From the NCBI GenBank assembly GCA_036626395.1, contig JAZKRZ010000001.1, forward strand, positions 1 through 63,701: a stretch of DNA of 63,701 bases. The letters are read 5' to 3'. Shown one piece after another: positions 1 through 59,339 of the stretch; position 1 is the stretch's first letter; the number at the start of each line of letters is the position of its first letter. The translations under genes and the position numbers were made by a program. This DNA comes from Haloarculaceae archaeon (GTDB lineage: Archaea; Halobacteriota; Halobacteria; Halobacteriales; Haloarculaceae). Under the pieces are notes generated by a model. That model worked only from the letters and a program-made list of their open reading frames with translations. It did no database searches and was not told the DNA's origin.

Positions 1-41
1 GCGTTCGGGGCCGCCGTTTGAAAACGTCGCGGTCGGCGTCA

Positions 42-150
42 TACGGACCGTTGTACTTCGTTACCGCCGTCGCGAAACACGGTGAACGCATCGGGCCGTA
101 ACTCGCCCATCCGTCGGCGGTATCGCCCAAAATGGGTACAACGGTCCGTA
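42..150 (+). mobile_element. MITE-like element, family B, copy B1 (109 bp)
   Basis: 15-bp perfect terminal inverted repeats TACGGACCGTTGTAC / GTACAACGGTCCGTA. Near-identical to copies at 24716, 59113 and the fragment at 53154. Flanked by direct TCA (39-41 and 151-153). Confidence 0.8.
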
Positions 151-183
151 TCAGGCATCGCGCCGTGTCGGTCTGCCATCTAA

Positions 184-291
184 TACTGTCGGACACAAGT
201 ACGTGAACACGCTTGCCAGGAACACGCTATCGAAACGCCCGTTCCCGGTCGAACGAGCCACCGACGGTGGCCTCACTTGTGTCCGACAGTA
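184..291 (+). mobile_element. MITE-like element, family A, copy A1 (108 bp)
   Basis: 17-bp terminal inverted repeats TACTGTCGGACACAAGT / ACTTGTGTCCGACAGTA. Same 108-bp unit occurs at 14053, 37186, 54096 and 57836. Flanked by direct TAA (181-183 and 292-294). Confidence 0.85.
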
Positions 292-448
292 TAAGAGTGC
301 TACTACGAAGAGCGTGAAAGCCCCGAGTCGTTCGAGGGGTGCGACTCGCCCCTTTCACGCTGTCTGCGGTTGATCTAATGGAGTTCGACCTAGCCACCAT
401 TCCGTCGTCTCTCTAACTCACGAGACGAGAAAGCGAGCGAGCGGCCGA

Positions 449-610
449 TTACAGCCCGACCGCGCGCAAGACGAGGATGAGGAAACCGAAGAAGGCGCCG
501 AAGGCGATGATCGTCCGCGGGTCGACCCGTATCGCGTTGTTGTCTTCGGCGTCGAAGTACCGGACGAGACCGGCACTGGACATCAGTCCGCTGCCGTCGT
601 TACTGCTCAT
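449..610 (-). CDS. secG: Preprotein translocase subunit SecG (Sec61 beta), 53 aa; below the ORF-track length cutoff
   Basis: Hand translation gives [53 protein letters not shown]. It has the conserved SSAGLxRYF motif and a single C-terminal TM helix typical of archaeal Sec61beta. Confidence 0.8.
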
Positions 611-787
611 ATCCCCCAGTGTGCGCGCCGCCTGCCTAAGCCTTTCGCCCTGGGCTCGTCCCGGCCGCGAGACGCCCGTTCCGGACCCGTCGACCCCGCG
701 TTCGCGGCCGGGAGAGTCGTCGCCGATGCGCGGTCCGCGCGCGTAGTGAAAACGCTTATCGGGTCCGATCCACTACGAGCCACACGT

Positions 788-1054
788 ATGACTGTCACAC
801 TCAAGGACTTCTACGCCGACTGGTGTGGGCCGTGCAAGACCCAGGACCCGATCCTCGAGGACCTCTCCGAGGAGTGGACCGACGTGGAGTTCGAGAAGGT
901 CAACGTCGACGAACAGCAGGACGTCGCCAACGAGTACCAGGTGCGCTCGCTCCCGACGCTCGTCGTCGAGAACGAGGACGGCATCGTCGAACGGTTTATC
1001 GGCGTCACGCAGGCCGAGGACATCGAGGCCGCCTTCGAGAAAGCCGGCGCCTGA
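788..1054 (+). CDS. trxA: Thioredoxin
   Basis: WCGPC active-site motif and thioredoxin-length protein. Internal ATG at 788 chosen over the GTG at 746. Confidence 0.9.
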   Translation: MTVTLKDFYADWCGPCKTQDPILEDLSEEWTDVEFEKVNVDEQQDVANEYQVRSLPTLVVENEDGIVERFIGVTQAEDIEAAFEKAGA

Positions 1055-1058
1055 AGGT

Positions 1059-1613: not shown

Positions 1614-1645
1614 CCGTTTTCGGCACGTCCCGCTTCCCTCGGAGT

Positions 1646-8360: not shown

Positions 8361-8627
8361 TCAGTCCTCGATCGCGTCACCGGCGGCGATGAAGAACCCG
8401 ACGACGGCGGTGATGAAGGCGACGGTGCCGATGGCGACGAAGCCGACCTGGACGAGGTCGCCGCTGAGTCGGTTTGCCGTCAACAGGATAAACACCGCAG
8501 TGACGAAGCCGATGAGCGCGAGCGTCCGGCCCAGTCGTCCCACGTCGATGCCCGCGTCGGACTGGGTCTCGGCCTCCGTCTCGACAGCTGTCCCCGTCGG
8601 GACGCCGGATTCGGTTTCATCCGGCAC
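8361..8627 (-). CDS. Small membrane protein (2 TM), hypothetical
   Basis: Acidic N-terminus followed by two hydrophobic helices. Overlaps the upstream small gene by 11 nt. Confidence 0.55.
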   Translation of the reverse strand: MPDETESGVPTGTAVETEAETQSDAGIDVGRLGRTLALIGFVTAVFILLTANRLSGDLVQVGFVAIGTVAFITAVVGFFIAAGDAIED

Positions 8628-9124: not shown

Positions 9125-10114
9125 ATGGTCGACCGACAGCGCGACTACACCGTCGACGAAAGACTGAGCGACGCCGACGAGAACGTCCACAGCGCCTGGG
9201 ACAACTCCCTGGACCCGGCGCTGACGGTCGAACCCGGGTCGGTGGTGCGCTTCGAGTGCCGGGACGCCGTCGACCGGCAGATCGACGTCGAGTCGACGCC
9301 CGAGGACGTCCTCGACGTGAGTTTCGACCCGGTGCACCCGCTCACCGGGCCCGTCGCCGTCGAGGGTGCCGAACCCGGGGACGTCCTGGAAGTGGAACTG
9401 CTGGACCTGCAGCACAAGGGCTGGGGGTACAACCTGTTCATGCCCGGCGAGATGGGGTTGGGGTTGCTCCCCGAGGAGTTCCCGGACCCCGGGCTGTACG
9501 TCTGGGACCTCGAGGGCGACGTTGGACACTTCGTCGACGGTATCGAGGTACCGCTGGACCCGTTCCCCGGCGTCGCCGGCGTCGCGCCGGCCGCCGATGG
9601 CGAACACGACACGCTGCCGCCCCGGAGCGTCGGCGGGAACATGGACGTCAAGCACCTCACCGCGGGGTCGACGCTCTATCTCCCGGTCGAAGTCGAGGGC
9701 GCGCTGTTCTCGACTGGCGACTGTCACGCCGCCCAGGGCGACGGCGAGGTCTGTGTCACGGGTATCGAGGCGCCGATGTTCGTGACCGCACGCTTCGACG
9801 TCCGCTCGGACATGAACGTCGAACAGCCCCAGTTCGAGACGACGGGGCCGTTCACGCCGACGGGCGCCGACGAACCGATGTACGGCACTACTGGCATCGA
9901 CCCGGACCTGATGGAGGCGACCAAGAAAGCGGTCTCGCACATGATCACGCACCTCCACGAGGAACGCGGCCTCTCGCGGGCCCACGCGTACATCCTCAGT
10001 TCGGCGGCCGTCGACCTGAAGGTCAACGAGGTGGTCGACGCGCCCAACTGGACGGTGTCGGCGTACCTCCCCGAGAGCGTCTTCCCCACGAGCGTCGGTT
10101 ACCAGCCAGAGTGA
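9125..10114 (+). CDS. Acetamidase/formamidase family amidohydrolase
   Basis: Length and motifs (GPVAVEGAEPGDVLEV, GGNMDVKHL, STGDCHAAQGDGEVC) typical of the FmdA/AmdA family. Confidence 0.8.
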   Translation: MVDRQRDYTVDERLSDADENVHSAWDNSLDPALTVEPGSVVRFECRDAVDRQIDVESTPEDVLDVSFDPVHPLTGPVAVEGAEPGDVLEVELLDLQHKGWGYNLFMPGEMGLGLLPEEFPDPGLYVWDLEGDVGHFVDGIEVPLDPFPGVAGVAPAADGEHDTLPPRSVGGNMDVKHLTAGSTLYLPVEVEGALFSTGDCHAAQGDGEVCVTGIEAPMFVTARFDVRSDMNVEQPQFETTGPFTPTGADEPMYGTTGIDPDLMEATKKAVSHMITHLHEERGLSRAHAYILSSAAVDLKVNEVVDAPNWTVSAYLPESVFPTSVGYQPE

Positions 10115-14052: not shown

Positions 14053-14160
14053 TACTGTCGGACACAAGTACGTGAACACGCTTGCCGGGAAAACGCTATC
14101 GAAAAGCCAGTTCCCGGTCGAACGAGCCTCCGACGGTGGCCTCACTTGTGTCCGACAGTA
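14053..14160 (+). mobile_element. MITE-like element, family A, copy A2 (108 bp)
   Basis: Same inverted repeats and interior as A1. Flanked by direct TCA (14050-52 and 14161-63). Confidence 0.85.
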
Positions 14161-24162: not shown

Positions 24163-24220
24163 AAAGTAAAAAATTATTCATAATGATTTATTATCCCACA
24201 CCGCATTGGGGGTAACACGC

Positions 24221-24715
24221 ATGTCCCAGACAACCTGCGGGACGCGTGCACGGCTCCACGTCAGGAAAACGCTGCCGACACCGGTTCGCGGCCGTCGCGA
24301 ACGGGTCACGGACCGGCTCTCGGCGCTCGTAGCCGACGGTTCCCTCGCGGAGTTCGACGTCGTCCCCTGGGACAAACGGATCCCGTGTGACGGGTCGGGC
24401 GACCCGGAGACGAGGGACGCCTACCTGGCGTTTTCCGGGTGGGCCGACAGCGAGGACGTCAGCCTGTCCCCGTTCTTCGAGACGCGGGAGTGTTACTCCT
24501 GGGAGACCGGCGAGCGCGGAACGTGGGTCGTCCTGCCGGCGCTCTGCTTGTCGGTCTACGAGGGCGACGACCTCGCCGCGGTCTACCCGCACAGGGACGG
24601 CGACTCCTACGAGTCGGTCTGGACGGGCATCGAGTCGCTGGACGACGGGGAAAACCGGAACGACCGGGACCACGCCGCCGACCGCGACACGGTCGTGGTC
24701 GGACCGACACGCTGA
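24221..24715 (+). CDS. Conserved-looking hypothetical protein
   Basis: ATG at 24221 lies about 30 nt after an AT-rich TATA region (24165-24195). The stop TGA at 24713-15 abuts MITE B2. Confidence 0.6.
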   Translation: MSQTTCGTRARLHVRKTLPTPVRGRRERVTDRLSALVADGSLAEFDVVPWDKRIPCDGSGDPETRDAYLAFSGWADSEDVSLSPFFETRECYSWETGERGTWVVLPALCLSVYEGDDLAAVYPHRDGDSYESVWTGIESLDDGENRNDRDHAADRDTVVVGPTR

Positions 24716-24824
24716 TACGGACCGTTGTACCCATTTTCGGCGATGCCGCCGACGTATGGGCGAGTTACGGTCCGATGCGTTCACTGTGGTTCGCGACGGT
24801 GGTAACGAATTACAACGGTCCGTA
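24716..24824 (-). mobile_element. MITE-like element, family B, copy B2 (109 bp, inverted relative to B1)
   Basis: Same inverted repeats. Flanked by direct TGA (24713-15 and 24825-27). The left TGA is the stop codon of the upstream ORF. Confidence 0.85.
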
Positions 24825-34930: not shown

Positions 34931-34932
34931 CG

Positions 34933-37185: not shown

Positions 37186-37293
37186 TACTGTCGGACACAA
37201 GTACGTGAACACACTTGCTGGGAACACACTATCGAAACGCCCGTTCCGGGTCGAACGAGCCACCGACGGTGGCCTCACTTGTGTCCGACAGTA
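37186..37293 (+). mobile_element. MITE-like element, family A, copy A3 (108 bp)
   Basis: Flanked by direct TGA (37183-85 and 37294-96). The left TGA is the stop codon of the GT-C gene. Confidence 0.85.
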
Positions 37294-45916: not shown

Positions 45917-45989
45917 GGGCGTGTGGCCTAGTGGACAGGGCGAGAGGTTCCTAACCTCTCGATCGCGGGTTCGAATCCCGCCACGCCCG
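45917..45989 (+). tRNA. tRNA-Arg (anticodon CCU), 73 nt, no encoded CCA
   Basis: Hand-folded cloverleaf. Acceptor stem GGGCGTG/CACGCCC; D arm GCCT-AGTGGACA-GGGC. Anticodon arm AGAGG-TTCCTAA-CCTCT; T arm GCGGG-TTCGAAT-CCCGC. Confidence 0.9.
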
Positions 45990-48843: not shown

Positions 48844-48865
48844 TGGCGACGGAGGGACCGAACTC

Positions 48866-50695
48866 GTGACCGCGCCGAACCGGGCGACGCTCTGGGGCGA
48901 ACTCATCGTCGACGAACTCGTCGCCGCCGGCGTCGAGGCCGCCTGTCTCGCACCCGGAAGCCGGTCGACGCCGCTGACTGTCGCGTTCGCGAACCACCCC
49001 GATGTGGAGACGTTCTCGGTCCTCGACGAGCGGTCGGCGGCCTTCTTCGCGCTCGGTCGGGGCCGCCGGACCGGGACGCCGACTGCCGTCGTCTGCACGT
49101 CCGGGACGGCCGCGGCGAACTTCCACGCCGCAGTGGTCGAGGCCAGCCAGTCGGGTGTTCCGATGGTCGTGCTGACGGCGGACCGGCCGGCCGAACTCCA
49201 CGACAGCGGGGCGAACCAGACCGTCGACCAGTCGGACCTGTACGGCGACGCCCCGCGATACCACCGGACGCTCCCCGAACCGGCGCCCGAGCCGCGCCGG
49301 CTCCGGTCGGTGCGCGTGACCGTCGCGCGGGCCGCCGCGAAGGCGGTCGGCGCCGACTCCGGCCCGGTCCACCTGAACGTCCCCGTCGCGAAACCGCTGG
49401 AGCCCGCGGAGGTGCCGGGCGACGTTCCCGATTCGCTCGCCGACGCGGACCCGGAAGCCGTCGAGGGGCGCGATGGCCCGTTCGTCCGGACGAGCGAGGG
49501 CGTCGCGACCCCGGGCGACGCCGTCGTGGCCGACGTCGCTGGGGCGCTCGCGGACGCCGACCGGGGACTGCTCGTGGCGGGACCGCTTGCCCCCGGTAGG
49601 GTCGACGCCGACGCGGTTGGGGGTTTCCTCGACGCCACCGGCGTCCCGTTGCTCGCGGACCCCCTCTCGGGCCTCCGGTTCGGGTCGCTGGTCGCGGACG
49701 GCGACGGCAACGCGACCGGCCCGGAGGGTCGACTCGTCTGTGGCGGCTACGACGCGTACGTCAGCAGCGAGGGGCTGTCCGACCCCGACGTCGTGGTGCG
49801 GGTCGGCGCCTCGCCGACGTCGAAACCCCTCAGGAAACAGCTCGCCAGTGCCGACGCGCGACAGTTCGTGGTCGACCCTTCCGGCGAGTGGCCCGAAGCG
49901 GAGTTCACCGCCACCGACTACGTGCGGGCGGACCCATCGCGGGTACTGGAGGCGGTCGCGGACCGGCTGGTCGACCGGTACGGCGCGAACCCGCGGGGCG
50001 ACACCGCGGACGTGACCGGCGCCCTTGCCGCGAGCACGACCTGGCGCGAGCGCTTTCGTCGCGCCGAACGCGCTCACTGGGAACTCGTCGAGGAGGCGAG
50101 GGCGGAGCGGCTGTTCGAGGGCGGCCTCCTCGCGAGCGCGGTCGAATCGGCGCCCGACCCGGCGACGCTGTTCGTCTCCAACAGCATGCCCGTCCGGGAC
50201 TGCGACCGCTTCGGTGCGCCCCGGGCCGCCGACCTCACGGTGCTCGGCAACCGGGGCGCCAGCGGCATCGACGGTATCGTGAGCAGCGCGCTCGGTGCGG
50301 GCAGCGCCACCGACGACCCGCTGGTGCTCGTGACCGGCGACCTGGCGTACTACCACGACATGAACGGGCTGCTGTCGGTGGCGCGGTGTGGCCTCGACGC
50401 GACGGTCGTCGTCGTGAACAACGACGGCGGCGGCATCTTCCACATGCTGCCCATCGAGGAGTTCGACCCGCCCTTTACCGACCAGTTCAAGACCCCCCAC
50501 GGTCTCGATTTCGAACCGACCGGCGACCTCTACGGGCTGGACTACGAACGCGTCTCGACCACCGCCGGGTTCGAGCGCGCCTACGCAGAGTCCCTCGCGA
50601 GCGAGGGGGCCCATGTCGTCGACGTCACCGTCGACGCAGAGGAGAGCCACCGCTTTCGCGAGACCCTCCAGGAACGCCTCCACGACCGCCTCTGA
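48866..50695 (+). CDS. menD: SEPHCHC synthase (2-succinyl-5-enolpyruvyl-6-hydroxy-3-cyclohexene-1-carboxylate synthase)
   Basis: ThDP enzyme (GSRSTPL; GNRGASGIDG; VVNNDGGGIF). GTG start, following menF. Confidence 0.85.
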   Translation: MTAPNRATLWGELIVDELVAAGVEAACLAPGSRSTPLTVAFANHPDVETFSVLDERSAAFFALGRGRRTGTPTAVVCTSGTAAANFHAAVVEASQSGVPMVVLTADRPAELHDSGANQTVDQSDLYGDAPRYHRTLPEPAPEPRRLRSVRVTVARAAAKAVGADSGPVHLNVPVAKPLEPAEVPGDVPDSLADADPEAVEGRDGPFVRTSEGVATPGDAVVADVAGALADADRGLLVAGPLAPGRVDADAVGGFLDATGVPLLADPLSGLRFGSLVADGDGNATGPEGRLVCGGYDAYVSSEGLSDPDVVVRVGASPTSKPLRKQLASADARQFVVDPSGEWPEAEFTATDYVRADPSRVLEAVADRLVDRYGANPRGDTADVTGALAASTTWRERFRRAERAHWELVEEARAERLFEGGLLASAVESAPDPATLFVSNSMPVRDCDRFGAPRAADLTVLGNRGASGIDGIVSSALGAGSATDDPLVLVTGDLAYYHDMNGLLSVARCGLDATVVVVNNDGGGIFHMLPIEEFDPPFTDQFKTPHGLDFEPTGDLYGLDYERVSTTAGFERAYAESLASEGAHVVDVTVDAEESHRFRETLQERLHDRL

Positions 50696-50780
50696 TACGG
50701 GCTGTGGTAACTCGCCACCGGTCCGGGGCACCACCGGTAACCAGTCCCGACAATTTCGACGAGCCGTCCGCTCGGTTCGC

Positions 50781-51824
50781 TCAGGCCTCCAGCATCGAGA
50801 GCGTGAGCACGGAGAGCGCGCAGGGGACCCACGTGACAGAGAGCGTCACGACGCCGACGACGGAGACCAGACCGACGCCCGGCAGTGCCACGAGTGCGAG
50901 CGGTGCGAGGACGCTCCAGAGGCCGAAAACGGTAACGGCGACCTCCGGGACCGAGAGGAGGTAGGCGAACATCACCAGCGTACAGGTGGCGACCAGGAGT
51001 CTGACGACCATCGGGAACGCGGGAGAGAGCGCGCTCGCGACGAAAAACGGATAGAGGAAGAACATCGAGACGAACAGGAGTGCCGACTGCTGGGTCGGCA
51101 CGAATCGCTCGGGGTCGAGACTCGGACTGTCCGACCCCCCCCGTCGAACGGCCCACGACCGGGTCTGTTCCCAGGCGTTCCACGACCAGTCGGCGTTGGG
51201 GCCACTCGTCGTTCCGGCGGCCGCCTGTCGCCTGGCGGACGGGCCGTCGGCACTGCTGGCAGGGCCGGCCGTCGCCTGTGCCCCCGAGGACTGCCAGCGC
51301 GACTCCGTCGGCCCGGTCTTTCGTCCCTGGCCGCTACTCCGCCGTCCGTCCCGGCCTGTCCGGGGACCGTCCGAGTTCGAGACTGACCCCGACCCGCGGG
51401 CGTTCCCTGTGGACGACCCGGGGCCCGGCCGGTTCGCCCGACCCGCCGTCGCATTCCCTGCCCGGCCTCGTCGCTGACGGCGGTACCTGTCACCTCTCGA
51501 CCCGCCGGTGTCGTCGCGTTCACCTCCCACCCCGGTTTCCCCGTCCGGCGAGTCGGTGGCACTTTCGGCTTCGTTTCCGGCGTTACTGGTCGTGGGCCCG
51601 CTGGAGGTGTACGCCTCGTGGCCCTGGCGGTCGTAGCGGGCCCGCTCGCGCTCGTCGGTCAGCACTCGCCTCGCCTTGTTGAGTCGTTTGGTCCGCTCGC
51701 CGGCGTCGACGTCGTCGCTGACGTCCGGATGGACCTGCTTTATCTCGTCGCGGTAGGCCTCCTCGATAGCCGCCGTGGAGGCGTCCTCGGCCACGCCGAG
51801 CAGGTCGTAGAACGTCTCAGTCAT
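50781..51824 (-). CDS. J-domain (DnaJ-like) membrane protein
   Basis: N-terminal J domain (FYDLLGV...HPD). It is followed by a long Gly/Arg/Ser-rich linker and about 4 C-terminal TM helices. Confidence 0.75.
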   Translation of the reverse strand: MTETFYDLLGVAEDASTAAIEEAYRDEIKQVHPDVSDDVDAGERTKRLNKARRVLTDERERARYDRQGHEAYTSSGPTTSNAGNEAESATDSPDGETGVGGERDDTGGSRGDRYRRQRRGRAGNATAGRANRPGPGSSTGNARGSGSVSNSDGPRTGRDGRRSSGQGRKTGPTESRWQSSGAQATAGPASSADGPSARRQAAAGTTSGPNADWSWNAWEQTRSWAVRRGGSDSPSLDPERFVPTQQSALLFVSMFFLYPFFVASALSPAFPMVVRLLVATCTLVMFAYLLSVPEVAVTVFGLWSVLAPLALVALPGVGLVSVVGVVTLSVTWVPCALSVLTLSMLEA

Positions 51825-52199
51825 GCCAACGAGTGCTCCGGTATCGTCACTCGATAGGAGCGTGTCCTACATTAACGCAGGGGTCTGTGGTATCGAGGTC
51901 GATACTCCCCGGCTGGTCCCGTGCACGGACAGGCGACGGTTTCGAACGGCCAGTTCCGACTCGACCGTGGTTCGAATGCGCCGAAGCCGCTGTACCCGCC
52001 GGGGCCGGGGCCCGCGTGCGGAGCGCCGGCCCAGTCTCGAGCGGGACGGCGTGGGAGCCAGACGTGGATTCACGCAGGTCGTCCGCGCGGGTAACCGGGC
52101 CACATCTCGGTACGGCGGTCGCCGGGGAGCGAGCGAACCCGGCAGTGACTGGACGCCGTCCACGGAATCTTTTTGCGCGGGCCGGCCCCAGCGACTGGC

Positions 52200-53153
52200 A
52201 TGGTTTCCGAGACCTTCAACCCGGAGCGGTGGGAGTCGGTCGACGAATTCGACTTCCGCGACCTGACCTACCACCGGGCGACCGGCGTCGGGGCGGTCCG
52301 TATCGCCTTCGACCGCCCGGCGGTCCGCAACGCCTTCAGACCGGGGACCGTCGACGAACTCTACACCGCCCTGGACCACGCCAGGCGCCAGACCGGCGTC
52401 GGCTGTGTCCTGCTGACCGGCAACGGCCCCTCACCGAAAGACGGGGGCTGGGCGTTCTGTTCGGGCGGCGACCAGTCCGTGCGCGGCGAGTCGGGCTACG
52501 AGTACCGGGGCGAGGACGGCGAACGGCCGGACGTCCCGGAACGGTCGAGCGGTGAACCCGACGAATCACGAGACGACGACCGCGAGTCCGCCGCGAGCCC
52601 GGGTCGCCTCCACATCCTCGAGGTCCAGCGTCTCATCAGGCACGTCCCGAAGCCCGTGGTCTGCGTCGTGCCCGGCTGGGCCGTCGGCGGTGGCCACTCG
52701 CTGCACGTCGTCTGTGACCTGACCATCGCCAGCGAAGAACACGCGAAGTTCCTCCAGACCGACCCCGACGTCGCGTCCTTCGACGCCGGGTTCGGGTCGG
52801 CGTACCTCGCCCGCCAGATCGGTCAGAAGAAGGCGCGCGAGGTCTTCTTCCTCGGGAAGACCTACGACGCTACGGAGGCTGCGGACATGGGTATGGTCAA
52901 CGAAGTCGTCCCACACGAGGACCTGGAGGACGTCGCGCTGGAGTGGGCCGAGCGGATCCTGAGCAAGTCGCCGATGGCGATCCGCATGCTCAAGTACGCG
53001 TTCAACATGGCCGACGACGGGATGGTCGGCCAGCAGGTGTTCGCCGGCGAGGCCACCCGACTCGGGTACATGACCGACGAGGCCGCCGAGGGTCGGGACG
53101 CGTTCAACGAGGGTCGCGAGCCCGACTTCGACGAGTTCGACTGGCACTACTGA
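52200..53153 (+). CDS. menB: 1,4-dihydroxy-2-naphthoyl-CoA synthase
   Basis: Crotonase fold with MenB motifs (FCSGGDQ, GWAVGGGHSLHVVCDLTIAS, PDFDEFDW). The stop TGA at 53151-53 abuts a MITE B fragment. Confidence 0.9.
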   Translation: MVSETFNPERWESVDEFDFRDLTYHRATGVGAVRIAFDRPAVRNAFRPGTVDELYTALDHARRQTGVGCVLLTGNGPSPKDGGWAFCSGGDQSVRGESGYEYRGEDGERPDVPERSSGEPDESRDDDRESAASPGRLHILEVQRLIRHVPKPVVCVVPGWAVGGGHSLHVVCDLTIASEEHAKFLQTDPDVASFDAGFGSAYLARQIGQKKAREVFFLGKTYDATEAADMGMVNEVVPHEDLEDVALEWAERILSKSPMAIRMLKYAFNMADDGMVGQQVFAGEATRLGYMTDEAAEGRDAFNEGREPDFDEFDWHY

Positions 53154-53192
53154 TACGGACCGTTGTACCCATTTTCGGCGATGCCGCCGACG
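53154..53192 (-). mobile_element. Truncated family B element (B3, about 39 bp of one end)
   Basis: TACGGACCGTTGTACCCATTTTCGGCGATGCCGCCGACG is identical to the first 39 nt of B2. Similarity then stops. Confidence 0.7.
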
Positions 53193-53435
53193 ATACCCGA
53201 GACCCTCCCCGGACGCGTGGTCATAAACGTTCGTCCGGTGACACCAATTCGATACATTCGGAGGGACCTCGCCGACCGACCGGCGAAGGTCACCCCGGTT
53301 CGACGCTGTGTCCGAGGCCCCACGACGTACCGAAGCGGTCCGCTCGGCCGGGAGAAGGTAGTGCCTCGGGCTTCGAGGTTCCAGCGCGGGCGGGTCGACT
53401 GAAACACTTATACGAGCGACGAGCGAAGTGGGGTT

Positions 53436-54095
53436 ATGACCTACGATACCGTCGTTTTCGACAACGACGGTGTCCTCGTCGGACGGACGAGTTTCGACGT
53501 CCTCGAGGACGCGACCCGCGAAACGTTCGACCGGTTCGGCGTCGAGGACCCGGACCCCGACCACGTCGAGGACATGACCATCGGTGCGACGCCCGAAACC
53601 GTCGACGCGGTCTGTGAGACCTACGACTTCGCCCCGCTGGAGTTCTGGCGCGCCCGTGACCGTATTGTCTCCGAGGCGCAGCAGGCAGAGGCCCGCGCGG
53701 GCCGCAAGACGCCCTACGACGACGTCGACACGCTCGCCGACCTGGACGTGTCGATGGGCGTCGTCAGCTCCAACCAACAGGCAACGGTCGATTTCCTGCT
53801 GGACCACTTCGAACTCCGACACATGTTCGGGACCGCCTACGGTCGCGAGGCCACCATCGGCAGTCTCACGTTGCGAAAGCCCGACCCGCACTACGTCGAC
53901 ATGGCGCTTTCGGACCTGAAAGCCGAGACGGCGCTGTTCGTCGGTGACAACGAGTCCGACATCCGGGCGGCCGAGAACGCCGGCATCGACTCGGCGTTCA
54001 TCCGCCGACCCCACCGCCGCGACTGGGAACTGAACGTCTGGCCGACCTGGGACATCGACTCGCTCGACGACCTCCACGACATCGTCTACGCCTGA
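53436..54095 (+). CDS. HAD-superfamily hydrolase
   Basis: FDNDGVLV motif I and VGDNESD motif IV. The stop TGA at 54093-95 abuts MITE A4. Confidence 0.8.
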   Translation: MTYDTVVFDNDGVLVGRTSFDVLEDATRETFDRFGVEDPDPDHVEDMTIGATPETVDAVCETYDFAPLEFWRARDRIVSEAQQAEARAGRKTPYDDVDTLADLDVSMGVVSSNQQATVDFLLDHFELRHMFGTAYGREATIGSLTLRKPDPHYVDMALSDLKAETALFVGDNESDIRAAENAGIDSAFIRRPHRRDWELNVWPTWDIDSLDDLHDIVYA

Positions 54096-54203
54096 TACTG
54101 TCGGACACACGTGAGGCCACCGTGGATGGCTCGTTCGACCGGGAACGGGCGTTTCGATAGCGTGTTCCCGGCGAGCGTGTTCACGTACTTGTGTCCGACA
54201 GTA
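54096..54203 (-). mobile_element. MITE-like element, family A, copy A4 (108 bp, inverted)
   Basis: Flanked by direct TGA (54093-95 and 54204-06). The left TGA is the stop codon of the HAD gene. Confidence 0.85.
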
Positions 54204-54279
54204 TGAGCGTCTGCGCGTCGCCACGAGCGGCCGTCGCGGATGCGAACTTTGACACTCGCTCCGTCCCGAGTGCCCGGTA

Positions 54280-55251
54280 ATGTCGACCGCGGACGCCCAG
54301 GTGTCGAAACGGCGAGCGTGGGTGATGGCCGCGCGGCCACAGACGTTACCGGCAGGCGCTTCGCCGGTGGTCGTCGGCGCGGGACTCGCGCTCCACGCCG
54401 GCGTCTTCGCGGCGGTCCCGTGGCTGGCGGCGCTCGTCGGCGCCCTGCTCATCCAGGTCGGAACGAACTTCGCCAACGACTACTACGACGCCGTCAAGGG
54501 CGCCGACACGGACGACCGCGAGGGGTTCACACGCGTCACGGCGGGGGGGCTCATCCCGCCCCGACAGGTCAAATTCGCGATGGTCGCTACCTACGGCCTC
54601 GCCGTCCTCGTCGGGGTCTACCTCGTCGCCATAGGCGGTATCCCGATCCTCGCCGTCGGTCTCTCCAGCATCGCCGCCGGGATACTCTACACCGGGGGCC
54701 CCTACCCCTACGGCTACCGGGGGCTCGGGGACCTCTTCGTGTTCGTCTACTTCGGCGTCGTCGCCGTCACTGGCACGTTCTACGTCCAGGCAGTCGCCAG
54801 CGGTGAGGTCGGCCTCTTCCCGCTGTGGGTCCCCGAGGGGACCGTTCCGCTCGCCGCCGTCCTCGCCAGTCTCCCCGCCGCGGGGCTCTCGACGGCGATT
54901 CTCGTCGTCAACAACGTCCGCGACAGGGAGACCGACGCCGCGGCGGGCAAGCGGACCCTCGCGGTCGTGCTCGGCTACCGGTGGAGTCGCGTCGAGTTTC
55001 TCCTCCTCGTCGGGATGGCCTACGTCGTCCCGGTCGTTTTCGCGCTCGACCCGGCGTACGGCCTCCCGGCGCTGACGCCGCTGCTCTCGCTCCCGCTCGC
55101 CGCCTCGGTCTCCCTGACGGTCCTGGAACGGGCGGACGGCGGCGCGTTGAATCCAGCTCTCGAGCGCGTGGGCCAGACGCTGTTCGCTCACTCGCTGCTG
55201 TTCGCCGCCGGACTGGCCGCGCCCGCTCTCGTCCCCGCACTGTCGCTATGA
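54280..55251 (+). CDS. menA: 1,4-dihydroxy-2-naphthoate polyprenyltransferase
   Basis: UbiA-family multi-TM protein with an NDYYD motif, in men context. Confidence 0.85.
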   Translation: MSTADAQVSKRRAWVMAARPQTLPAGASPVVVGAGLALHAGVFAAVPWLAALVGALLIQVGTNFANDYYDAVKGADTDDREGFTRVTAGGLIPPRQVKFAMVATYGLAVLVGVYLVAIGGIPILAVGLSSIAAGILYTGGPYPYGYRGLGDLFVFVYFGVVAVTGTFYVQAVASGEVGLFPLWVPEGTVPLAAVLASLPAAGLSTAILVVNNVRDRETDAAAGKRTLAVVLGYRWSRVEFLLLVGMAYVVPVVFALDPAYGLPALTPLLSLPLAASVSLTVLERADGGALNPALERVGQTLFAHSLLFAAGLAAPALVPALSL

Positions 55252-56291
55252 TCGAACCGTTCTCGCTCCCGCTGTCGTCGCCGCTCGACACTGCGTCGGG
55301 GGCGGTCGACCGCCGCGAGGGGTTCCTCGTGATGTACGACCACCGTGGCGTCACGGGGGTGGGCGAGTCGACGGTCCTTCCGGGGTGGACCGAGTCCCTC
55401 GACGAGTGCCGGGAGGCGCTCGACCGCGCGCTGGCAGTCGGCACGGACGACCGACACAGCGAGGCGCTGCTGACGATGGACGCCGACGAAGTGCCGGCGG
55501 CGAGGCACGGCTTCGCCACCGCGCTGGTCGACGCCGACGCGCGGGCCGACGGCGTCCCGCTGTACCGGTGGTTCGACGGGGACAGTCGCGTCCGGCGGGT
55601 TCCGGTCAACGCCACCGTCGGGGACGACGATGTCGAAGGAACGGTGACGGCCGCCGAGACGGCCGTCACGGCGGGGTTCGACTGTCTGAAGCTGAAGGTC
55701 GGCGCCCGCGAGTTGGACGCCGACGTGGCGCGACTGCGGGCCATCCGCGAGGCGGTCGGTCCGGACGTGACCCTCCGTGCCGACGCCAACGGCGTCTGGG
55801 ACCGCGAGACCGCCCGCCTGGCTGTAGAGAAGTTCGCAGCGCTCGACGTGGCCTACGTCGAACAGCCCCTCGCGGCCGAGGACCTGTCGGGACTCGCCGA
55901 CCTCCGCGGCGGTCCGGTCGACGTCGCCGTCGACGAGTCGCTGGTCGAACACCGCGTCGCGGACGTCCTCGACGCAGACGCCGCGGACGTGCTGATATGC
56001 AAGCCGATGGTCCTCGGCGGGCCGGGTAACGCCCACACGCTGGCGATGCGGGCTCGCGACCTGGGCGTCGAGCCGGTCGTGACGACCACCATCGACGCCG
56101 TCGTCGCCCGGACCGCGGCGGTCCACGTGGCGGGGGCCATCCCGGACGTCCGTCCCTGCGGGCTCGCGACGGCCGACCTGCTCGCGGCGGACCTCGGCCC
56201 CGACCCCGCGCCCGTCGCGGACGGCTCTGTCGCCGTGCCACAGGACCCGGGACTCGGGGTCACGTTCGAGGACCTGGAGGGACCACGGTGA
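55248..56291 (+). CDS. menC: o-Succinylbenzoate synthase (enolase superfamily)
   Basis: ATG at 55248 overlaps the menA stop (ATGA). Enolase-superfamily motifs (LKLKVG, DANG, EQP). Confidence 0.8.
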   Translation: MIEPFSLPLSSPLDTASGAVDRREGFLVMYDHRGVTGVGESTVLPGWTESLDECREALDRALAVGTDDRHSEALLTMDADEVPAARHGFATALVDADARADGVPLYRWFDGDSRVRRVPVNATVGDDDVEGTVTAAETAVTAGFDCLKLKVGARELDADVARLRAIREAVGPDVTLRADANGVWDRETARLAVEKFAALDVAYVEQPLAAEDLSGLADLRGGPVDVAVDESLVEHRVADVLDADAADVLICKPMVLGGPGNAHTLAMRARDLGVEPVVTTTIDAVVARTAAVHVAGAIPDVRPCGLATADLLAADLGPDPAPVADGSVAVPQDPGLGVTFEDLEGPR

Positions 56292-57835
56292 CGCTCCCCC
56301 CACCGGAGGACTGGCCAGTCGACGACCCGGTCGCCGACAGGTCGGTCGACCTGCTCCGCGAGCGAACCCGAGCCACCCCCGACGCGACGGCGGTCGTCGA
56401 CGCCGACACCGGCGAGGCGTGGACCTTCGACGAGTTCGGCGGCCGCGTCTCGCGGCGGGCCCGCTGGCTCGCCGACCTGGGTGCTGACGCCGGACGCACC
56501 GGGGTGGCACTCGATACGGGGCCCGCGTTCGCCGGCGTCTACTTCGCGGTCGGACGCCGGGGTGGAGCGGTCGTCCCCCTGAACCTCGATTTGCCCGCCG
56601 AGGCGCTCCGACGACAGGCCGAGCGGGCGGGCGTCGACTGCATAGTCTGTGGACGTGACACCGAGGAACTGGCGGTCTCCGCCGCACCGTCCGACGTTCC
56701 CGTCGCGTCGGTCGAGACGCCCGATTGGGACGGTCCGACGGAACCGAGTCGCGGGGCGGAGCCGCCGGTCCCGGACGACCGGCCACTGGACGCCGAGCGC
56801 GCCGTTCTGTTCACGTCCGGGACGACTGGCGACCCGAAGGGCGTGCGACTCACTCGGGGGAACCTCGTCGCGAGCGCCGTCGGGTCGGCCTACCGACTCG
56901 GCGTCGAACCGGACGACCGCTGGCTGGGCTGTCTCCCGATGTACCACATGGGGGGGCTCGCGCCGCTCGTCCGCTCGACGCTCTACGGGACGACAACCGT
57001 GATACATCGGTCGTTCGACGCCGCGGGGACGGCAGACGCGATGGCCGAGTACGACGTCACGGGCGTCTCGCTGGTGCCGACGATGCTCCACCGACTGCTC
57101 GAAGCGGGCTGGCATCCCCCCGACTCCTTGCGGTTCGTCCTCCTGGGAGGTGGGGCCGCTTCCGAGGACCTGCTCGGCCGGGCGCTCGGCCGCGGCGTCC
57201 CGGTCTATCCGACCTACGGCGCGACCGAGACGGCCTCGCAGGTGGCGACAGCGACGCCCGGGGAGGTCCGCGAACACCCGGGGACCGTCGGTCGCCCGCT
57301 CCGCGGCACCGCTGTCTCGGTCCGCGCCGGGTCGGGAGAGAACTGCGACGTCGGCGAACGGGGCGAGGTCGTCGTGTCGGGCCCGACAGTCACGCCCGGC
57401 TATCTCGACGGCGCCCGGTCGTCCGACGCTTTCGACGAACACGGGTTTCACACCGGCGACCTGGGCTATCGCGACGAAGCGGGTCGGCTCTGGGTGGTCG
57501 GCCGACTCGACGACCGCATCGTGACCGGCGGCGAGAACGTCCACCCGGGCACCGTCGCCGACGCGCTGGCGACCCTTTCGACGGTCAGCGACGCCGCGGT
57601 CGTCGGCCTCCCGGACGACGAGTGGGGCGAGCGCGTCGCCGCGCTGGTCGTCCCCACAGACCCCGCCGACCCGCCGACCCCGACGGACGTCCGCGAGGCG
57701 CTCCGCGGCCGGGTGGCCGACTACGCTCTCCCGAAGACCGTCGGCGTCGCGGATACACTTCCGCGGACGCCCTCGGGCACGGTCGACCGCGGGGCCGTCA
57801 GAGACCGACTCGAAGACGCGGCCGACGGCGACTGA
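56288..57835 (+). CDS. menE: o-Succinylbenzoate--CoA ligase
   Basis: AMP-binding motif LFTSGTTGDPKGV. GTG overlaps the menC stop. The stop TGA at 57833-35 abuts MITE A5. Confidence 0.85.
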   Translation: MTLPPPEDWPVDDPVADRSVDLLRERTRATPDATAVVDADTGEAWTFDEFGGRVSRRARWLADLGADAGRTGVALDTGPAFAGVYFAVGRRGGAVVPLNLDLPAEALRRQAERAGVDCIVCGRDTEELAVSAAPSDVPVASVETPDWDGPTEPSRGAEPPVPDDRPLDAERAVLFTSGTTGDPKGVRLTRGNLVASAVGSAYRLGVEPDDRWLGCLPMYHMGGLAPLVRSTLYGTTTVIHRSFDAAGTADAMAEYDVTGVSLVPTMLHRLLEAGWHPPDSLRFVLLGGGAASEDLLGRALGRGVPVYPTYGATETASQVATATPGEVREHPGTVGRPLRGTAVSVRAGSGENCDVGERGEVVVSGPTVTPGYLDGARSSDAFDEHGFHTGDLGYRDEAGRLWVVGRLDDRIVTGGENVHPGTVADALATLSTVSDAAVVGLPDDEWGERVAALVVPTDPADPPTPTDVREALRGRVADYALPKTVGVADTLPRTPSGTVDRGAVRDRLEDAADGD

Positions 57836-57943
57836 TACTGTCGGACACAAGTGGGGCCACCGTCGGTGGCTCGTTCGACCCGGAACGGGCGTTTCGATAG
57901 CGTGTTCCCGGCGAGTGTGTTCGCGTACTTGTGTCCGACAGTA
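57836..57943 (-). mobile_element. MITE-like element, family A, copy A5 (108 bp, inverted)
   Basis: Flanked by direct TGA (57833-35 and 57944-46). The left TGA is the stop codon of menE. Confidence 0.85.
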
Positions 57944-58000
57944 TGACCGCGGCCCCGGACTGGCGCGGGCTTTAATCGGTCTCGCTTCCTACGGGGGTTC

Positions 58001-58741
58001 GTGTGCACGCTCGTCTTCGCCTGGCAGGTGTTCACTGACGCACCGGTGGTCGCCGCGGCCAACCGCGACGAACGGCTGGACCGCCCCGCGGAACCGCCCG
58101 ACGTCGTCGACGACCGACCGCGCGTGGTCGCGCCCCGTGACGCCGAGGCCGGCGGTACCTGGATCGGCTACAACGAACAGGACGTCCTGGTCGCAGTCAC
58201 GAACCGCTGGACCGACCGCGACGTGACGGGCGACCGCTCGCGCGGGTTGCTCGTCCGCGACGCGCTCCGGGAGCGCTCCGCGGAAGACGCCGTCCGCCTC
58301 GTCGAGCGCGAACTCGACGACCGCGAGTACGAGGGGTTCAATCTCGTCGTCGCCGACCCGACCGCGGCGCTGTACGTCGAGTACGACGGGGCCGTCCGCG
58401 TCCGCAATTTCGAACCCGGCGTCCACGTCGTCGTCAACGTCGGTGCGGACGGCGAGTACGTGGTCCCGGCCACGAGGCCCGAAGCGGGCGAACGGCAGGC
58501 CGAAAACGCCGACCGACTGGCGGCCGAACTGGCGGTCGAACCCGGCGAGACCTCGACGGCGTGGCTCGACCGCGCGGCCGAGTGCATCGCCGACCACGAC
58601 TACGGCGTCTGCGTCCACCGCGACAGCTTCGGCACCCGTTCCTCGTCGCTCATCACTCTCGGTACCGATGGCGCGACCTACCGGTACGCCGACGGACCGC
58701 CCTGCGAGACGGACTACCGGCACGTGGAAGGGCAGGTTTAA
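58001..58741 (+). CDS. NRDE-family protein (DUF833 / TANGO2-like)
   Basis: MCTLVF N-terminus and the AANRDE motif. GTG start. Confidence 0.75.
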   Translation: MCTLVFAWQVFTDAPVVAAANRDERLDRPAEPPDVVDDRPRVVAPRDAEAGGTWIGYNEQDVLVAVTNRWTDRDVTGDRSRGLLVRDALRERSAEDAVRLVERELDDREYEGFNLVVADPTAALYVEYDGAVRVRNFEPGVHVVVNVGADGEYVVPATRPEAGERQAENADRLAAELAVEPGETSTAWLDRAAECIADHDYGVCVHRDSFGTRSSSLITLGTDGATYRYADGPPCETDYRHVEGQV

Positions 58742-58767
58742 ACGGTCCAGAGGACGTACCGGTAGGT

Positions 58768-59112
58768 ATGTCTGCTGCCGAAGAGGACCTCAACGAGGAC
58801 GAGCGCGCGGGACTCGAACTCATCAGGGAGACGGGGGGGATCCACCAGAGCGACTTCTGGAAGGAGCTGGACGTCAGTTCCCGCAAGGGCAGCCGCATCG
58901 CCGAATCGCTGGCCGAGGAAGACCTCATTCAGCGCGAGGAGACCGTCTACAAGGGTCACAACACCTACTACCTGACGCCGGCGCTCCGTGACCTGGATTT
59001 CTCGTTGCTGATGGCCGGCGACCAACTCTCGCCGTTTATCGGCGACGAGGAAGTCGACGCCCACTCCGACACGTTCTCGCAGTGGGTGATGAACCTCGCA
59101 TACGAGGACTGA
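58768..59112 (+). CDS. Small winged-helix DNA-binding protein (114 aa)
   Basis: wHTH-like core (IHQSDFWKELDVSSRKGSRIAESLAEEDLIQRE). The stop TGA at 59110-12 abuts MITE B4. Confidence 0.6.
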   Translation: MSAAEEDLNEDERAGLELIRETGGIHQSDFWKELDVSSRKGSRIAESLAEEDLIQREETVYKGHNTYYLTPALRDLDFSLLMAGDQLSPFIGDEEVDAHSDTFSQWVMNLAYED

Positions 59113-59221
59113 TACGGACCGTTGTACTTCGTTACCGCCGTCGCGAACCACGGTGAACGCATCGGGCCGTAACTCGCCCATACGTCGACGGCATCGCCGA
59201 AAATGGGTACAACGGTCCGTA
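59113..59221 (+). mobile_element. MITE-like element, family B, copy B4 (109 bp)
   Basis: Flanked by direct TGA (59110-12 and 59222-24). The left TGA is the stop codon of the wHTH gene. Confidence 0.85.
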
Positions 59222-59339
59222 TGATACGGACTGCTGTCACTGTTTCCCACGACGACCGCCCGATTGCGCGCGGTCGATGGAGAAATGACTGCCAGCAATC
59301 CGTACGAGAGACGGGCTGGTCACCGAAAGAGGACGGGTC

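What the first reader, a model, noticed from the sequence alone, without database searches (positions are those of the whole stretch)
39..59224. Two unrelated MITE families both make T-N-A duplications, and six of nine copies sit exactly on the TGA stop codon of a gene
Every full-length copy of both repeat families is bracketed by an identical 3-bp direct repeat of the form T-N-A.
- A1 has TAA/TAA.
- A2 has TCA/TCA.
- A3, A4 and A5 have TGA/TGA.
- B1 has TCA/TCA.
- B2 and B4 have TGA/TGA.

The middle base always matches between the two sides, so this is a target-site duplication and not part of the element.

In six cases the left TGA is the in-frame stop codon of the upstream + strand gene:
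- the GT-C gene at 37183-85
- the HAD gene at 54093-95
- menE at 57833-35
- the 24221..24715 ORF at 24713-15
- menB at 53151-53 (fragment B3)
- the wHTH gene at 59110-12

Both element orientations occur at these sites, which argues against a strand-specific RNA function.

A simple model explains this. The transposase targets TNA, and integration into a TGA or TAA stop regenerates the stop, so it is about the only genic position that is selectively neutral. The alternative is active targeting of gene 3' ends. Either way, each of these genes gains a 108/109-nt 3' extension capable of forming a hairpin.
Basis: partly seen in the sequence, partly recalled or inferred. Interest (0 to 1): 0.8.

Follow-up and report, generated by a model that had tools for sequence, protein, structure and literature searches.

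The report
Haloarchaeal mini-transposons parked on stop codons
Small non-coding mobile elements in this salt-loving archaeon, most likely moved by an IS630-type transposase, duplicate a T-N-A triplet when they insert, so landing on a TGA stop codon leaves the gene intact, and that mostly explains why about 40% of copies sit exactly on stop codons.

Summary
Six abut the TGA stop of a Pfam-supported gene. A tenth element (80 nt, 59225-59304) sits in tandem after B4.

A census of about 590 kb from other Halobacteriales found 117 elements of at least 7 families with the same layout, TNA|TA[C/G]…|TNA.
- 87 have perfect TNA duplications, and 82 of those are TGA or TCA.
- 45-50 have a flank that is a gene's stop codon.

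Two orthologous loci carry a single TGA, which are empty sites.

The two families are not unrelated. Their inverted-repeat ends form a continuum. The family A arm matches (21-22 of 27 bases) the ends of a 1070-bp IS630-family insertion sequence, and 9 of 10 copies of that sequence on finished plasmids are themselves flanked by TNA.

The preferred target is C-T-(G/C)-A-G. Coding sites are used about 40 times less often than stops. Once flank preference and the scarcity of intergenic DNA are modelled, the expected share at stops is 0.44-0.50 against 0.62 observed.

These are a new variant of a known kind, probably the same kind as the unexplained "small mobile repeats" of Haloquadratum.

The parts
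42..150 (+). MITE B1 (109 nt). Inverted-repeat ends TACGGACCGTTGTAC. Flanked by TCA at 39-41 and 151-153.
   Evidence: Not at a recognisable gene end. The contig begins 38 nt upstream.
184..291 (+). MITE A1 (108 nt). Inverted-repeat ends TACTGTCGGACACAAGT. Flanked by TAA at 181-183 and 292-294.
   Evidence: Intergenic, about 155 nt downstream of the Sec61-beta gene at 449-610.
14053..14160 (+). MITE A2 (108 nt). Flanked by TCA at 14050-52 and 14161-63. It lies 9 nt beyond the TAG stop of the minus-strand CBS-domain gene (14173-14730).
24716..24824 (-). MITE B2 (109 nt). Flanked by TGA at 24713-15, which is the stop of the HTH_63 gene 24206-24715, and by TGA at 24825-27.
37186..37293 (+). MITE A3 (108 nt). 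Flanked by TGA at 37183-85, which is the stop of the PMT_2/DUF7846 glycosyltransferase 33898-37185, and by TGA at 37294-96.
   Evidence: RNA fold -50 kcal/mol, z = -5.4.
53154..53192 (-). B3, a truncated family B copy (39 nt, one arm only). It abuts TGA 53151-53, the stop of menB.
   Evidence: Truncated copies elsewhere also keep the stop-side end.
54096..54203 (-). MITE A4 (108 nt). Flanked by TGA at 54093-95, which is the stop of the HAD hydrolase 53436-54095, and by TGA at 54204-06.
57836..57943 (-). MITE A5 (108 nt). Flanked by TGA at 57833-35, which is the stop of menE 56288-57835, and by TGA at 57944-46.
   Evidence: Empty orthologous site with a single TGA in L076 at 8573-8575.
59113..59221 (+). 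MITE B4 (109 nt). Flanked by TGA at 59110-12, which is the stop of the conserved 114-aa gene 58768-59112, and by TGA at 59222-24.
   Evidence: Empty site in L076 at 9749-9751. L078 has a truncated related element at the same stop.
59225..59304 (+). Previously unlisted 80-nt MITE of the short size class. Inverted-repeat ends TACGGACTGCTGTCAC / TACGGATTGCTGGCAG. It lies in tandem with B4. Left flank TGA 59222-24, right flank CGA 59305-07.
   Evidence: (fold -37.7 kcal/mol, z = -6.0). Its central hairpin CGACCGCnCGAnTGnGnGCGGTCGAT is shared with family D of another genome.

Best explanation
**What they are.** The repeats are non-autonomous miniature transposons (MITEs) of one superfamily that is widespread in Halobacteriales. 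It comes in two size classes, about 78-80 nt and about 107-109 nt.

**How they move (inferred).** They are mobilised in trans by a clade of IS630-family (Tc1/mariner-type DDE) transposases carried on 1070-bp insertion sequences. This clade does not make the canonical TA duplication. It attacks a palindromic target, C-T-(G/C)-A-G, with cuts that leave the triplet T-N-A on both sides of the element.

**Why stop codons.**
- The element begins right after the triplet. Insertion into a TGA stop, or more rarely a TAA stop, therefore recreates the stop and leaves the protein unchanged.
- Insertions into the far more numerous in-gene TGA/TCA triplets destroy genes and are purged.
- The genome is compact, so few neutral sites remain.
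- The last sense codon is usually NNC in these GC3-rich genomes, for example GAC. That supplies the preferred C before TGA.
- Stops thus become the commonest tolerated landing sites. Repeat landings at the same stop give tandem or replaced copies.

**Shown and inferred.**
- Shown: the anatomy, the duplication, the empty sites, the target motif, the site-usage rates, the similarity of ends to the IS630-family element, and that element's own TNA flanks.
- Inferred: mobilisation in trans by that transposase, and purifying selection as the cause of the depletion in coding sequence.
For: **Duplication**
- 87 of 117 elements from at least 7 families have identical TNA flanks: TCA 45, TGA 37, TTA 3, TAA 2.
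- Imperfect pairs often keep the stop-side copy, for example TGA…CGA.
- L076 has a single TGA at the orthologous stop of menE and of the 114-aa gene. The proteins end at the same residue and the downstream TTTAAT box is conserved.

**Stops**
- 45 (strict) to 50 (loose) of 117 elements have a flank that is the stop of an ORF supported by third-position GC content.
- In the families that were not used to fetch the loci, the figure is 18 of 39.
- 9 of 10 randomly chosen such ORFs have Pfam domains, and eRF1_3 ends at residue 376 of 377.

**Target and usage**
- C is enriched at -1, G at +1 and G at -3. Sites reading CTSAG (S = G or C) are used at 22% when they are stops, 10% when intergenic and 1.5% when coding.
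- Overall usage is 8.8% at stops, 3.1% in short intergenic gaps and 0.2% in coding sequence.
- The expected share at stops, using a flank weight matrix and short gaps only, is 0.44-0.50 against 0.62 observed.
- Convergent, tandem and divergent gaps are used alike, at 4.0%, 2.9% and 2.6%.

**Transposase**
- A plasmid BLAST with A3 hit the end of an IS630-family element in Halorubrum ezzemoulense.
- That element's ends are TACTGTCAGC… and TACTCACGGACATAAATACGTGAACAC. The second end matches the A arm TACTGTCGGACACAAGTACGTGAACAC at 22 of 27 positions.
- The left end of related copies, TACTGTCGGC, shares its first 9 nt with the A arm.
- The protein has DDE_3 plus HTH_33/HTH_32 domains. It scores 148 bits on NCBIfam IS630 model NF033545, against a cutoff of 100.
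- 9 of 10 copies on finished plasmids are flanked by identical TNA.
- Sister clades (about 50% and about 42% identical) show the classical TA duplication.

**Against an RNA role**
- There is no orientation bias at stops, 14 versus 11.
Against: - No IS630 transposase is present in the window or in about 590 kb of MITE-bearing loci. Mobilisation in trans is therefore inferred only.
- Similarity of ends to the insertion sequence was shown directly only for family A. B and the others are linked through graded similarity of their ends and a shared layout.
- TNA is not the textbook IS630 duplication, which is TA.
- In metagenome assemblies the autonomous copies always have TNA flanks, but the middle base matches in only 3 of 10. 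I attribute this to chimeric assembly or recombination between copies, which was not tested.
- Sequence alone cannot separate a 3-bp duplication of TNA from a 1-bp duplication of N with the element read as ATAC…GTAT.
- A residual excess at stops remains after modelling (P = 0.003-0.04).
- The two sharply conserved size classes and the conserved hairpin architecture across families are not explained by a purely parasitic model.
Confidence: 0.75

Rival explanations
1. Active targeting of gene 3' ends. The transposase, or a host factor it uses, recognises something specific to stop codons or termination zones, such as DNA structure, terminating transcription complexes or replication-transcription conflicts. 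Stops would then be hit more often than their sequence predicts.
For: - Stops remain over-used after conditioning on flanks: 0.62 observed against 0.44-0.50 expected, P = 0.003-0.04.
- Stops are used about 2.2-fold more per site than promoter-free convergent gaps, 8.8% against 4.0%.
- The same stop is hit repeatedly: B4 plus the 80-nt element in the window, and a related truncated element at the orthologous stop in L078.
- 10 of 12 truncated copies keep the end that abuts TGA or TAA.
Against: - Most of the raw enrichment disappears once the C-TSA-G preference and the true amount of intergenic DNA are modelled.
- About half of all copies are intergenic, in all three types of gap.
- There is no frame relation to nearby stops.
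- Autonomous copies on plasmids are not noticeably at stops.
- The weight matrix was trained on only 37 sites and my gene caller is crude. A 1.3-fold residual is within the model's error.
- Repeat hits are expected anyway, because an insertion recreates two TGA targets.
Confidence: 0.12
2. The elements are retained because they do something useful for the host at gene 3' ends. A structured 3'-UTR module could stabilise mRNA, terminate or insulate transcription, or act as a regulatory RNA or protein-binding site. Stop-adjacent copies would then be positively selected.
For: - All families fold into long, stable hairpins, -38 to -56 kcal/mol with z = -3.9 to -8.
- Two sharply conserved lengths, about 78-80 and about 107-109 nt, recur in families whose sequences are unrelated.
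- The short class keeps a common architecture: terminal stem, CCGG-type mid stem, AT-rich bulge and GC-rich apical hairpin.
- Comparable roles are documented for bacterial REP, ERIC and Correia repeats. This rests on general knowledge and was not tested here.
Against: - There is no orientation bias at stops, 14 versus 11.
- Copies occur equally in divergent promoter regions.
- Truncated and decayed copies are common.
- There is no T-run terminator in either orientation (from the sequences).
- Orthologous genes do without the element.
- The conserved hairpin and length can equally reflect what the transposase needs for binding and synapsis.
Confidence: 0.08
3. These are Tourist-like MITEs of the IS5 / PIF-Harbinger superfamily. 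That is the textbook source of TNA (TWA) 3-bp duplications and of extended palindromic targets.
For: The duplication is TNA and the extended target G-N-C-TSA-G-N-C is palindromic. This resembles the IS1031-group and PIF targets, as recalled from the literature and not tested.
Against: - The only insertion sequence whose ends match is of the IS630 family.
- That insertion sequence itself carries TNA flanks in 9 of 10 finished copies.
- No IS5-type element with TAC… ends was found.
Confidence: 0.03

Closest known systems
IS630-family insertion sequences and their MITEs (Tc1/mariner superfamily; Stowaway-like MITEs; IS630's preference for CTAG)
   Same: - The A arm matches the ends of a 1070-bp IS630-family element.
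- The transposase has the DDE_3 and HTH domain set, is encoded in two reading frames, and passes the NCBIfam IS630 model.
- The target has the C-T…A-G flavour of IS630's classical CTAG site.
- A minority of MITE copies, and the sister clades of the insertion sequence, show the classical TA duplication, for example CTA|…|TAG.
   Different: - The dominant duplication is T-N-A (3 bp, with the middle base mostly G or C), not TA.
- No paper in the searched library describes this for IS630 elements. The ISfinder database could not be consulted.
Small mobile repeats (SMR) of Haloquadratum walsbyi: HqIRS41, 42, 43 and 55 (Dyall-Smith et al. 2011, PMC3119063)
   Same: - The two size classes are the same: 79-80 bp and 103-122 bp, mostly 107-111.
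- Both have prominent inverted-repeat ends and several families with unrelated sequence.
- Strain-specific HqIRS55 insertions measure 108+3 or 110+1 = 111 nt.
- One HqIRS55 insertion is listed as in a gene with the protein sequence not affected.
- That genome holds one intact 1070-bp 'ISSod10-type' element, ISHwa16. This is the same length as the IS630-clade element found here.
   Different: - They are described as making no target duplication and as having ends unrelated to any transposon.
- They are described as preferring palindromes in IS605-type elements, not stop codons.
- I could not obtain their sequences, so relatedness is untested. Plasmid PL47 carries none.
Tourist-like MITEs, PIF/Harbinger and the IS5 family (IS1031 group)
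   Same: 3-bp TNA-type duplication and an extended palindromic target.
   Different: The ends match an IS630-family element, not an IS5-family one. The middle base is G or C rather than A or T.
Bacterial intergenic hairpin repeats that sit next to stop codons (Correia, ERIC, RUP and similar)
   Same: Small size, hairpin-forming, TA-type target, and often found at gene ends.
   Different: Different hosts and different sequences. Here the duplication itself equals the stop codon, so the ORF is restored exactly. This comparison comes from general knowledge only and was not tested.

Membership tests
MITE (generic) | Short, non-coding, multi-copy element | tested here: met
   Elements are 74-109 nt. 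There are 10 copies in the window and 117 in about 590 kb of related genomes.
MITE (generic) | Terminal inverted repeats | tested here: met
   Arms of 15-18 nt with 0-3 mismatches in every family.
MITE (generic) | Target-site duplication, confirmed by empty sites | tested here: met
   87 of 117 elements have identical TNA flanks. A single TGA is found at two orthologous loci in L076.
MITE (generic) | Ends related to those of an autonomous transposon | tested here: met
   The A arm matches the right end of an IS630-family element at 21-22 of 27 positions. Its first 9 nt are identical to the left end.
IS630-family-derived MITE | The cognate element encodes an IS630-type DDE transposase | tested here: met
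   Pfam DDE_3 (1.4e-31) plus HTH_33/HTH_32. NCBIfam NF033545 scores 148.5 bits against a cutoff of 100.
IS630-family-derived MITE | TA dinucleotide target duplication | tested here: not met
   Most copies have TNA. Only about 9 family A copies show xTA|…|TAy. The matching IS630 clade also has TNA flanks, in 9 of 10 finished copies.
IS630-family-derived MITE | Mobilised in trans by that transposase | not testable with these tools
   No transposase gene is present in the window or in the MITE-bearing loci. A transposition assay is needed.
Tourist-like / IS5-PIF-Harbinger MITE | 3-bp TNA/TWA duplication | tested here: met
Tourist-like / IS5-PIF-Harbinger MITE | Ends matching an IS5-superfamily transposon | tested here: not met
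   The only insertion-sequence match in the plasmid collection was to the IS630 family. No long element with these ends is present in the loci.
Haloquadratum small mobile repeats (SMR) | About 80 or about 110 bp, with prominent inverted-repeat ends and no coding capacity | tested here: met
   The size classes here are 74-80 and 107-109 nt. The published classes are 79-80 and 103-122 bp.
Haloquadratum small mobile repeats (SMR) | No target duplication, and ends unrelated to any transposon | tested here: not met
   Here there is a TNA duplication and a match to IS630 ends. The published tables themselves list 108+3 = 111-nt insertions.
Haloquadratum small mobile repeats (SMR) | Sequence similarity to HqIRS41, 42, 43 or 55 | not testable with these tools
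   The SMR sequences could not be obtained. Plasmid PL47 contains none.
Intrinsic terminator / functional 3'-UTR RNA | Strand-specific placement, a T-run, and a known RNA family | tested here: not met
   Rfam found only one tRNA in the window. Orientation at stops is 14 versus 11. No run of five or more T is present in the elements.

The most novel reading that the evidence does not exclude
One clade of archaeal IS630-family transposases (1070-bp elements, of the ISHwa16 type) has shifted from the canonical TA target to C-T-(G/C)-A-G with a T-N-A duplication.

- This shift makes the TGA stop codons of GC-rich haloarchaeal genes self-restoring safe havens.
- It has spawned a large superfamily of 80-nt and 108-nt MITEs across the Halobacteriales.
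- That superfamily would include the 'small mobile repeats' of Haloquadratum, whose mode of movement has been called enigmatic since 2011.
- The strictly conserved lengths and hairpin architecture would reflect a structural requirement of this transposase.
- The residual excess at stops could reflect a real preference for gene ends.
Probability: 0.4. Interest if true: 0.55.

Novelty: new variant of a known kind. Interest (0 to 1): 0.45.

Why it matters
- **A safe-landing rule.** A transposon whose duplication equals a stop codon can insert inside a gene's boundary without altering the protein. Here this accounts for about 40% of more than 100 copies in several genera.
- **Non-canonical target.** The work points to an IS630-family clade with a T-N-A target, which bears on how target choice evolves in the Tc1/mariner superfamily.
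- **A testable answer to an open question.** It offers a specific candidate for what moves the Haloquadratum small mobile repeats.
- **Practical consequences.**
  - These elements break haloarchaeal assemblies. Both assemblies of this organism end contigs at them.
  - They lengthen 3' UTRs by 111 nt.
  - They can mislead gene-end and terminator annotation.

Tried and rejected
- **In-frame tandem stops.** Several intergenic copies have a stop a few codons upstream in frame. Across all non-stop copies, however, the frame relative to the nearest gene end is unbiased.
- **Tourist/IS5 origin.** This was my first guess from the TNA duplication and the CTNAG-like target. I dropped it when the plasmid BLAST hit IS630 ends.
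- **Long elements with the same ends.** I searched the loci for such elements with spacing up to 3.5 kb and found only pairs of separate MITEs.
- **Transposase in the MITE-bearing DNA.** tblastn of the IS630 transposase against the window and L002-L078 gave nothing.
- **Left flank of the window.** The other assembly's contig ends at the same base, so B1 and A1 could not be placed in context.
- **Haloquadratum plasmid PL47.** I scanned it for elements of this type to test the SMR link and found none.
- **Viral contigs.** Scans with the family A and B ends gave only chance 15-17-mer matches.
- **Rfam.** There is no RNA family on the elements.
- **Literature.** Searches for stop-codon MITEs in haloarchaea, for IS630 with TNA and for follow-ups on the SMRs found nothing beyond PMC3119063.
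- **Family B census.** Family B was found only in this organism, so its statistics rest on 4 copies.

Full report
**Setting**

The window has 69% GC. It is a whole contig of an uncultured or little-studied member of the Haloarculaceae. The same DNA occurs in NCBI assembly GCA_036625515.1. The closest menE proteins are only about 72% identical, and the closest named relatives are Halosimplex species at about 62-66%.

**Check of the observation**

Repeat finding recovers five copies of a 108-nt element and four copies, one truncated, of a 109-nt element.
- Family A has the inverted-repeat ends TACTGTCGGACACAAGT.
- Family B has the ends TACGGACCGTTGTAC.
- The fragment B3 abuts the TGA of menB.

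The six ORFs that end on the left TGA are genes.
- They are a PMT_2/DUF7846 glycosyltransferase, a HAD hydrolase, an AMP-binding menE, an HTH_63 protein, an enoyl-CoA hydratase-type menB, and a conserved 114-aa protein.
- The independent assembly also calls that last gene.
- Its orthologues end at the same residue.

Within the window alone, six or more of nine copies on stops has P = 0.007 against non-coding TNA triplets.

It is 80 nt long, lies at 59225-59304 directly after B4, and shares B4's right-hand TGA.

**Wider census**

- Most come from Halobacteriales metagenome-assembled genomes (QH_10_67_22, QS_5_68_33, Halococcoides, Haloglomus).
- Halobellus marinus is also represented.

A scan that required only "TA[C/G]…" inverted-repeat ends 60-130 nt apart found at least seven families in these loci.
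- Their ends are graded variants of one theme, for example TACTGTCGG…, TACGGTCGGTTGTAAC, TACGGACCGTTGTAC, TACGGTCGTGCGTAAC, TACTGCCGGCTGTAAG and TAGTGATTATTGTAGC.
- Their lengths fall into two classes, about 74-80 nt and about 107-109 nt.

Counts for the 117 elements:

| Measure | Count |
|---|---|
| Identical TNA flanks | 87 (TCA 45, TGA 37, TTA 3, TAA 2) |
| Flank is the stop of an ORF with a coding GC3 signature, strict to loose criteria | 45 to 50 |
| Same, in families not used to fetch the loci | 18 of 39 |

- Nine of ten randomly chosen stop-sited ORFs have Pfam domains. These include an eRF1 whose last domain ends at residue 376 of 377.
- Imperfect flank pairs often keep the stop-side copy, as in TGA…CGA.
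- Of 12 truncated copies, 10 keep the end that abuts TGA or TAA.
- About nine family A copies have flanks of the form xTA|…|TAy, for example CTA…TAG. These look like a TA duplication.

**Empty sites**

In metagenome contig L076 (menE 71% identical) the gene order menA-menC-menE-TANGO2-114-aa gene is kept.
- menE ends …GAC TGA and runs straight into the conserved TTTAAT box of the next gene.
- The 114-aa gene ends …GAG TGA and no element follows.

These are single-TGA empty sites at the same codon. The TGA is therefore the native stop, and it is duplicated where the element is present.

In L078 the same 114-aa stop carries a truncated element with the end TACGGACCGTCGTAAC. With the tandem pair in the window, this shows repeated use of one stop.

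**Is the stop association more than availability?**

I excised all elements and called genes by codon-position GC. Usage per available T-(G/C)-A site:

| Site class | Used / available | Rate |
|---|---|---|
| Stop codons | 43 / 489 | 8.8% |
| Intergenic gaps of 400 nt or less | 27 / 859 | 3.1% |
| Longer non-coding stretches (partly uncalled genes) | 11 / 1268 | 0.9% |
| Coding sequence | 16 / 7718 | 0.2% |

- T-(A/T)-A sites are used 3-10 times less often than T-(G/C)-A sites.
- Convergent, tandem and divergent gaps are used alike, at 4.0%, 2.9% and 2.6%.
- The flanks matter. C at -1, G at +1 and G at -3 are enriched, giving the palindrome G-N-C-TSA-G-N-C.
- CTSAG sites are used at 22% when stops, 10% when intergenic and 1.5% when coding.

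I trained a flank weight matrix on intergenic insertions only.
- With short gaps as the only alternative sites, the expected share at stops is 0.44-0.50 against 0.62 observed (P = 0.003-0.04).
- Against all non-coding sites the expected share is 0.19-0.30 (P below 1e-5).

Most of the effect thus comes from three things: the target motif, the exclusion from coding sequence, and the small amount of spacer DNA. The last sense codon, typically NNC and often GAC, supplies the preferred C. A residual of about 1.3-fold remains. It is within the error of my crude model.

There is no frame relation to nearby stops. There is also no orientation bias at stops, 14 versus 11.

**The transposase**

No long element with these ends lies in the loci, and no IS630 transposase is found there.

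BLAST of A3 against annotated plasmids hit the end of an "IS630 family transposase" gene on the Halorubrum ezzemoulense megaplasmid.
- The element is 1070 bp.
- Its ends are TACTGTCAGCTAAATATTC and TACTCACGGACATAAATACGTGAACAC.
- The second end matches the A arm TACTGTCGGACACAAGTACGTGAACAC at 22 of 27 positions.
- Related copies start with TACTGTCGGC.
- It encodes two overlapping frames, with HTH_33/HTH_32 and DDE_3 domains.
- It passes the NCBIfam IS630 model.

Flanks of the autonomous copies:
- On finished plasmids, nine of ten copies of this clade are flanked by identical TNA: TCA four times, TGA twice and TTA three times. The tenth has TAA and TTA.
- Ten further copies from metagenomes all have T-N-A on both sides, but the middle base matches in only three. 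I attribute this to chimeric assembly or to recombination between copies.
- Sister clades show the classical pattern xTA|TA…TA|TAy. They are about 50% and about 42% identical and include elements of the ISNpe3 and ISNamo16 types.

TNA is therefore a property of one IS630 clade, and the MITEs carry that clade's ends.

**Structure**

All families fold into long hairpins, -38 to -56 kcal/mol with z = -3.9 to -8. The short class keeps a common architecture across families whose sequences differ. I read this as a requirement of the transposase. A host function is not excluded.

**Comparison with what is known**

The closest published description is the "small mobile repeats" of Haloquadratum walsbyi (PMC3119063).
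- There are several unrelated families of 79-80 and 103-122 bp with prominent inverted-repeat ends.
- They were reported to have no target duplication and no known transposase, and their mobilisation was called enigmatic.
- The paper's own tables list HqIRS55 insertions of 108+3 = 111 nt. One lies in a gene with the protein sequence not affected.
- The tables also list a single intact 1070-bp "ISSod10-type" element, ISHwa16.

This fits the present elements well. I could not obtain the SMR sequences, so the link remains a lead.

I found no paper describing a T-N-A duplication for IS630 elements, or stop-codon parking of haloarchaeal MITEs. The ISfinder database could not be consulted.

**Verdict**

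- "Unrelated families" is wrong, and "any TNA" is too broad.
- The elements are MITEs derived from the IS630 family with a non-canonical T-N-A duplication biased towards TGA and TCA. They are a new variant of a known kind.
- Interest is moderate.

Noticed in passing
window 59225-59304: An extra 80-nt MITE lies in tandem with B4 at the stop of the 114-aa gene (flanks TGA/CGA). Its central hairpin CGACCGCnCGAnTGnGnGCGGTCGAT is nearly the same as in family D elements of a different genome, although the inverted-repeat ends differ.
   Followed up: partly
window 1 and 59237; L001, L090: Both assemblies of this organism break contigs at these repeats. The window starts 38 nt before B1, the other assembly's contig starts at the same base, and its men-cluster contig ends just after B4. 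The MITEs limit assembly.
   Followed up: partly
L053 1482-1561, L056 3446-3522, L072 74-150, L019 3227-3297, L069 5136-5244; also L084, L100, L115: Some elements have complementary rather than identical middle bases in their flanks (TGA…TCA, TAA…TTA). Inversion by recombination between oppositely oriented copies would produce exactly this. It was not tested.
   Followed up: no
L028 378-567; L060 5106-5299; L027 1096-1456: MITEs of different families sit back to back and share one TCA or TGA, or sit at both ends of a short gap between convergent genes. Filled sites are hit again.
   Followed up: partly
L079 2504-3573 and 3745-4812: Two IS630-family elements of different clades lie side by side on the Halorubrum ezzemoulense megaplasmid. 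One has TCA/TCA flanks and the other CTA…TAG (TA duplication). The difference in target therefore follows the transposase clade, not the host.
   Followed up: yes
window 47497-57835: A menaquinone cluster runs menF, menD, a minus-strand DnaJ-domain gene, menB, HAD, menA, menC and menE. Three MITE copies sit inside it, after menB, HAD and menE. The related contig L076 has a different gene upstream of menA and no MITEs.
   Followed up: partly
window 59463-59591: An imperfect 63-nt direct repeat with 66-nt spacing has a minus-strand reading that is rich in Gly, Pro and Met (…MGGGGGG…), inside the minus-strand ORF 59340-60095. This is probably a low-complexity protein.
   Followed up: no
window 45917-45989: tRNA-Arg (CCT) is the only Rfam or ARAGORN hit in the window.
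   Followed up: no
L027, L042, L052 (Halobellus): Halobellus genomes carry 77-78-nt elements with the family A ends, where other genomes have 108-109-nt ones. One type of end thus occurs on both size classes.
   Followed up: no
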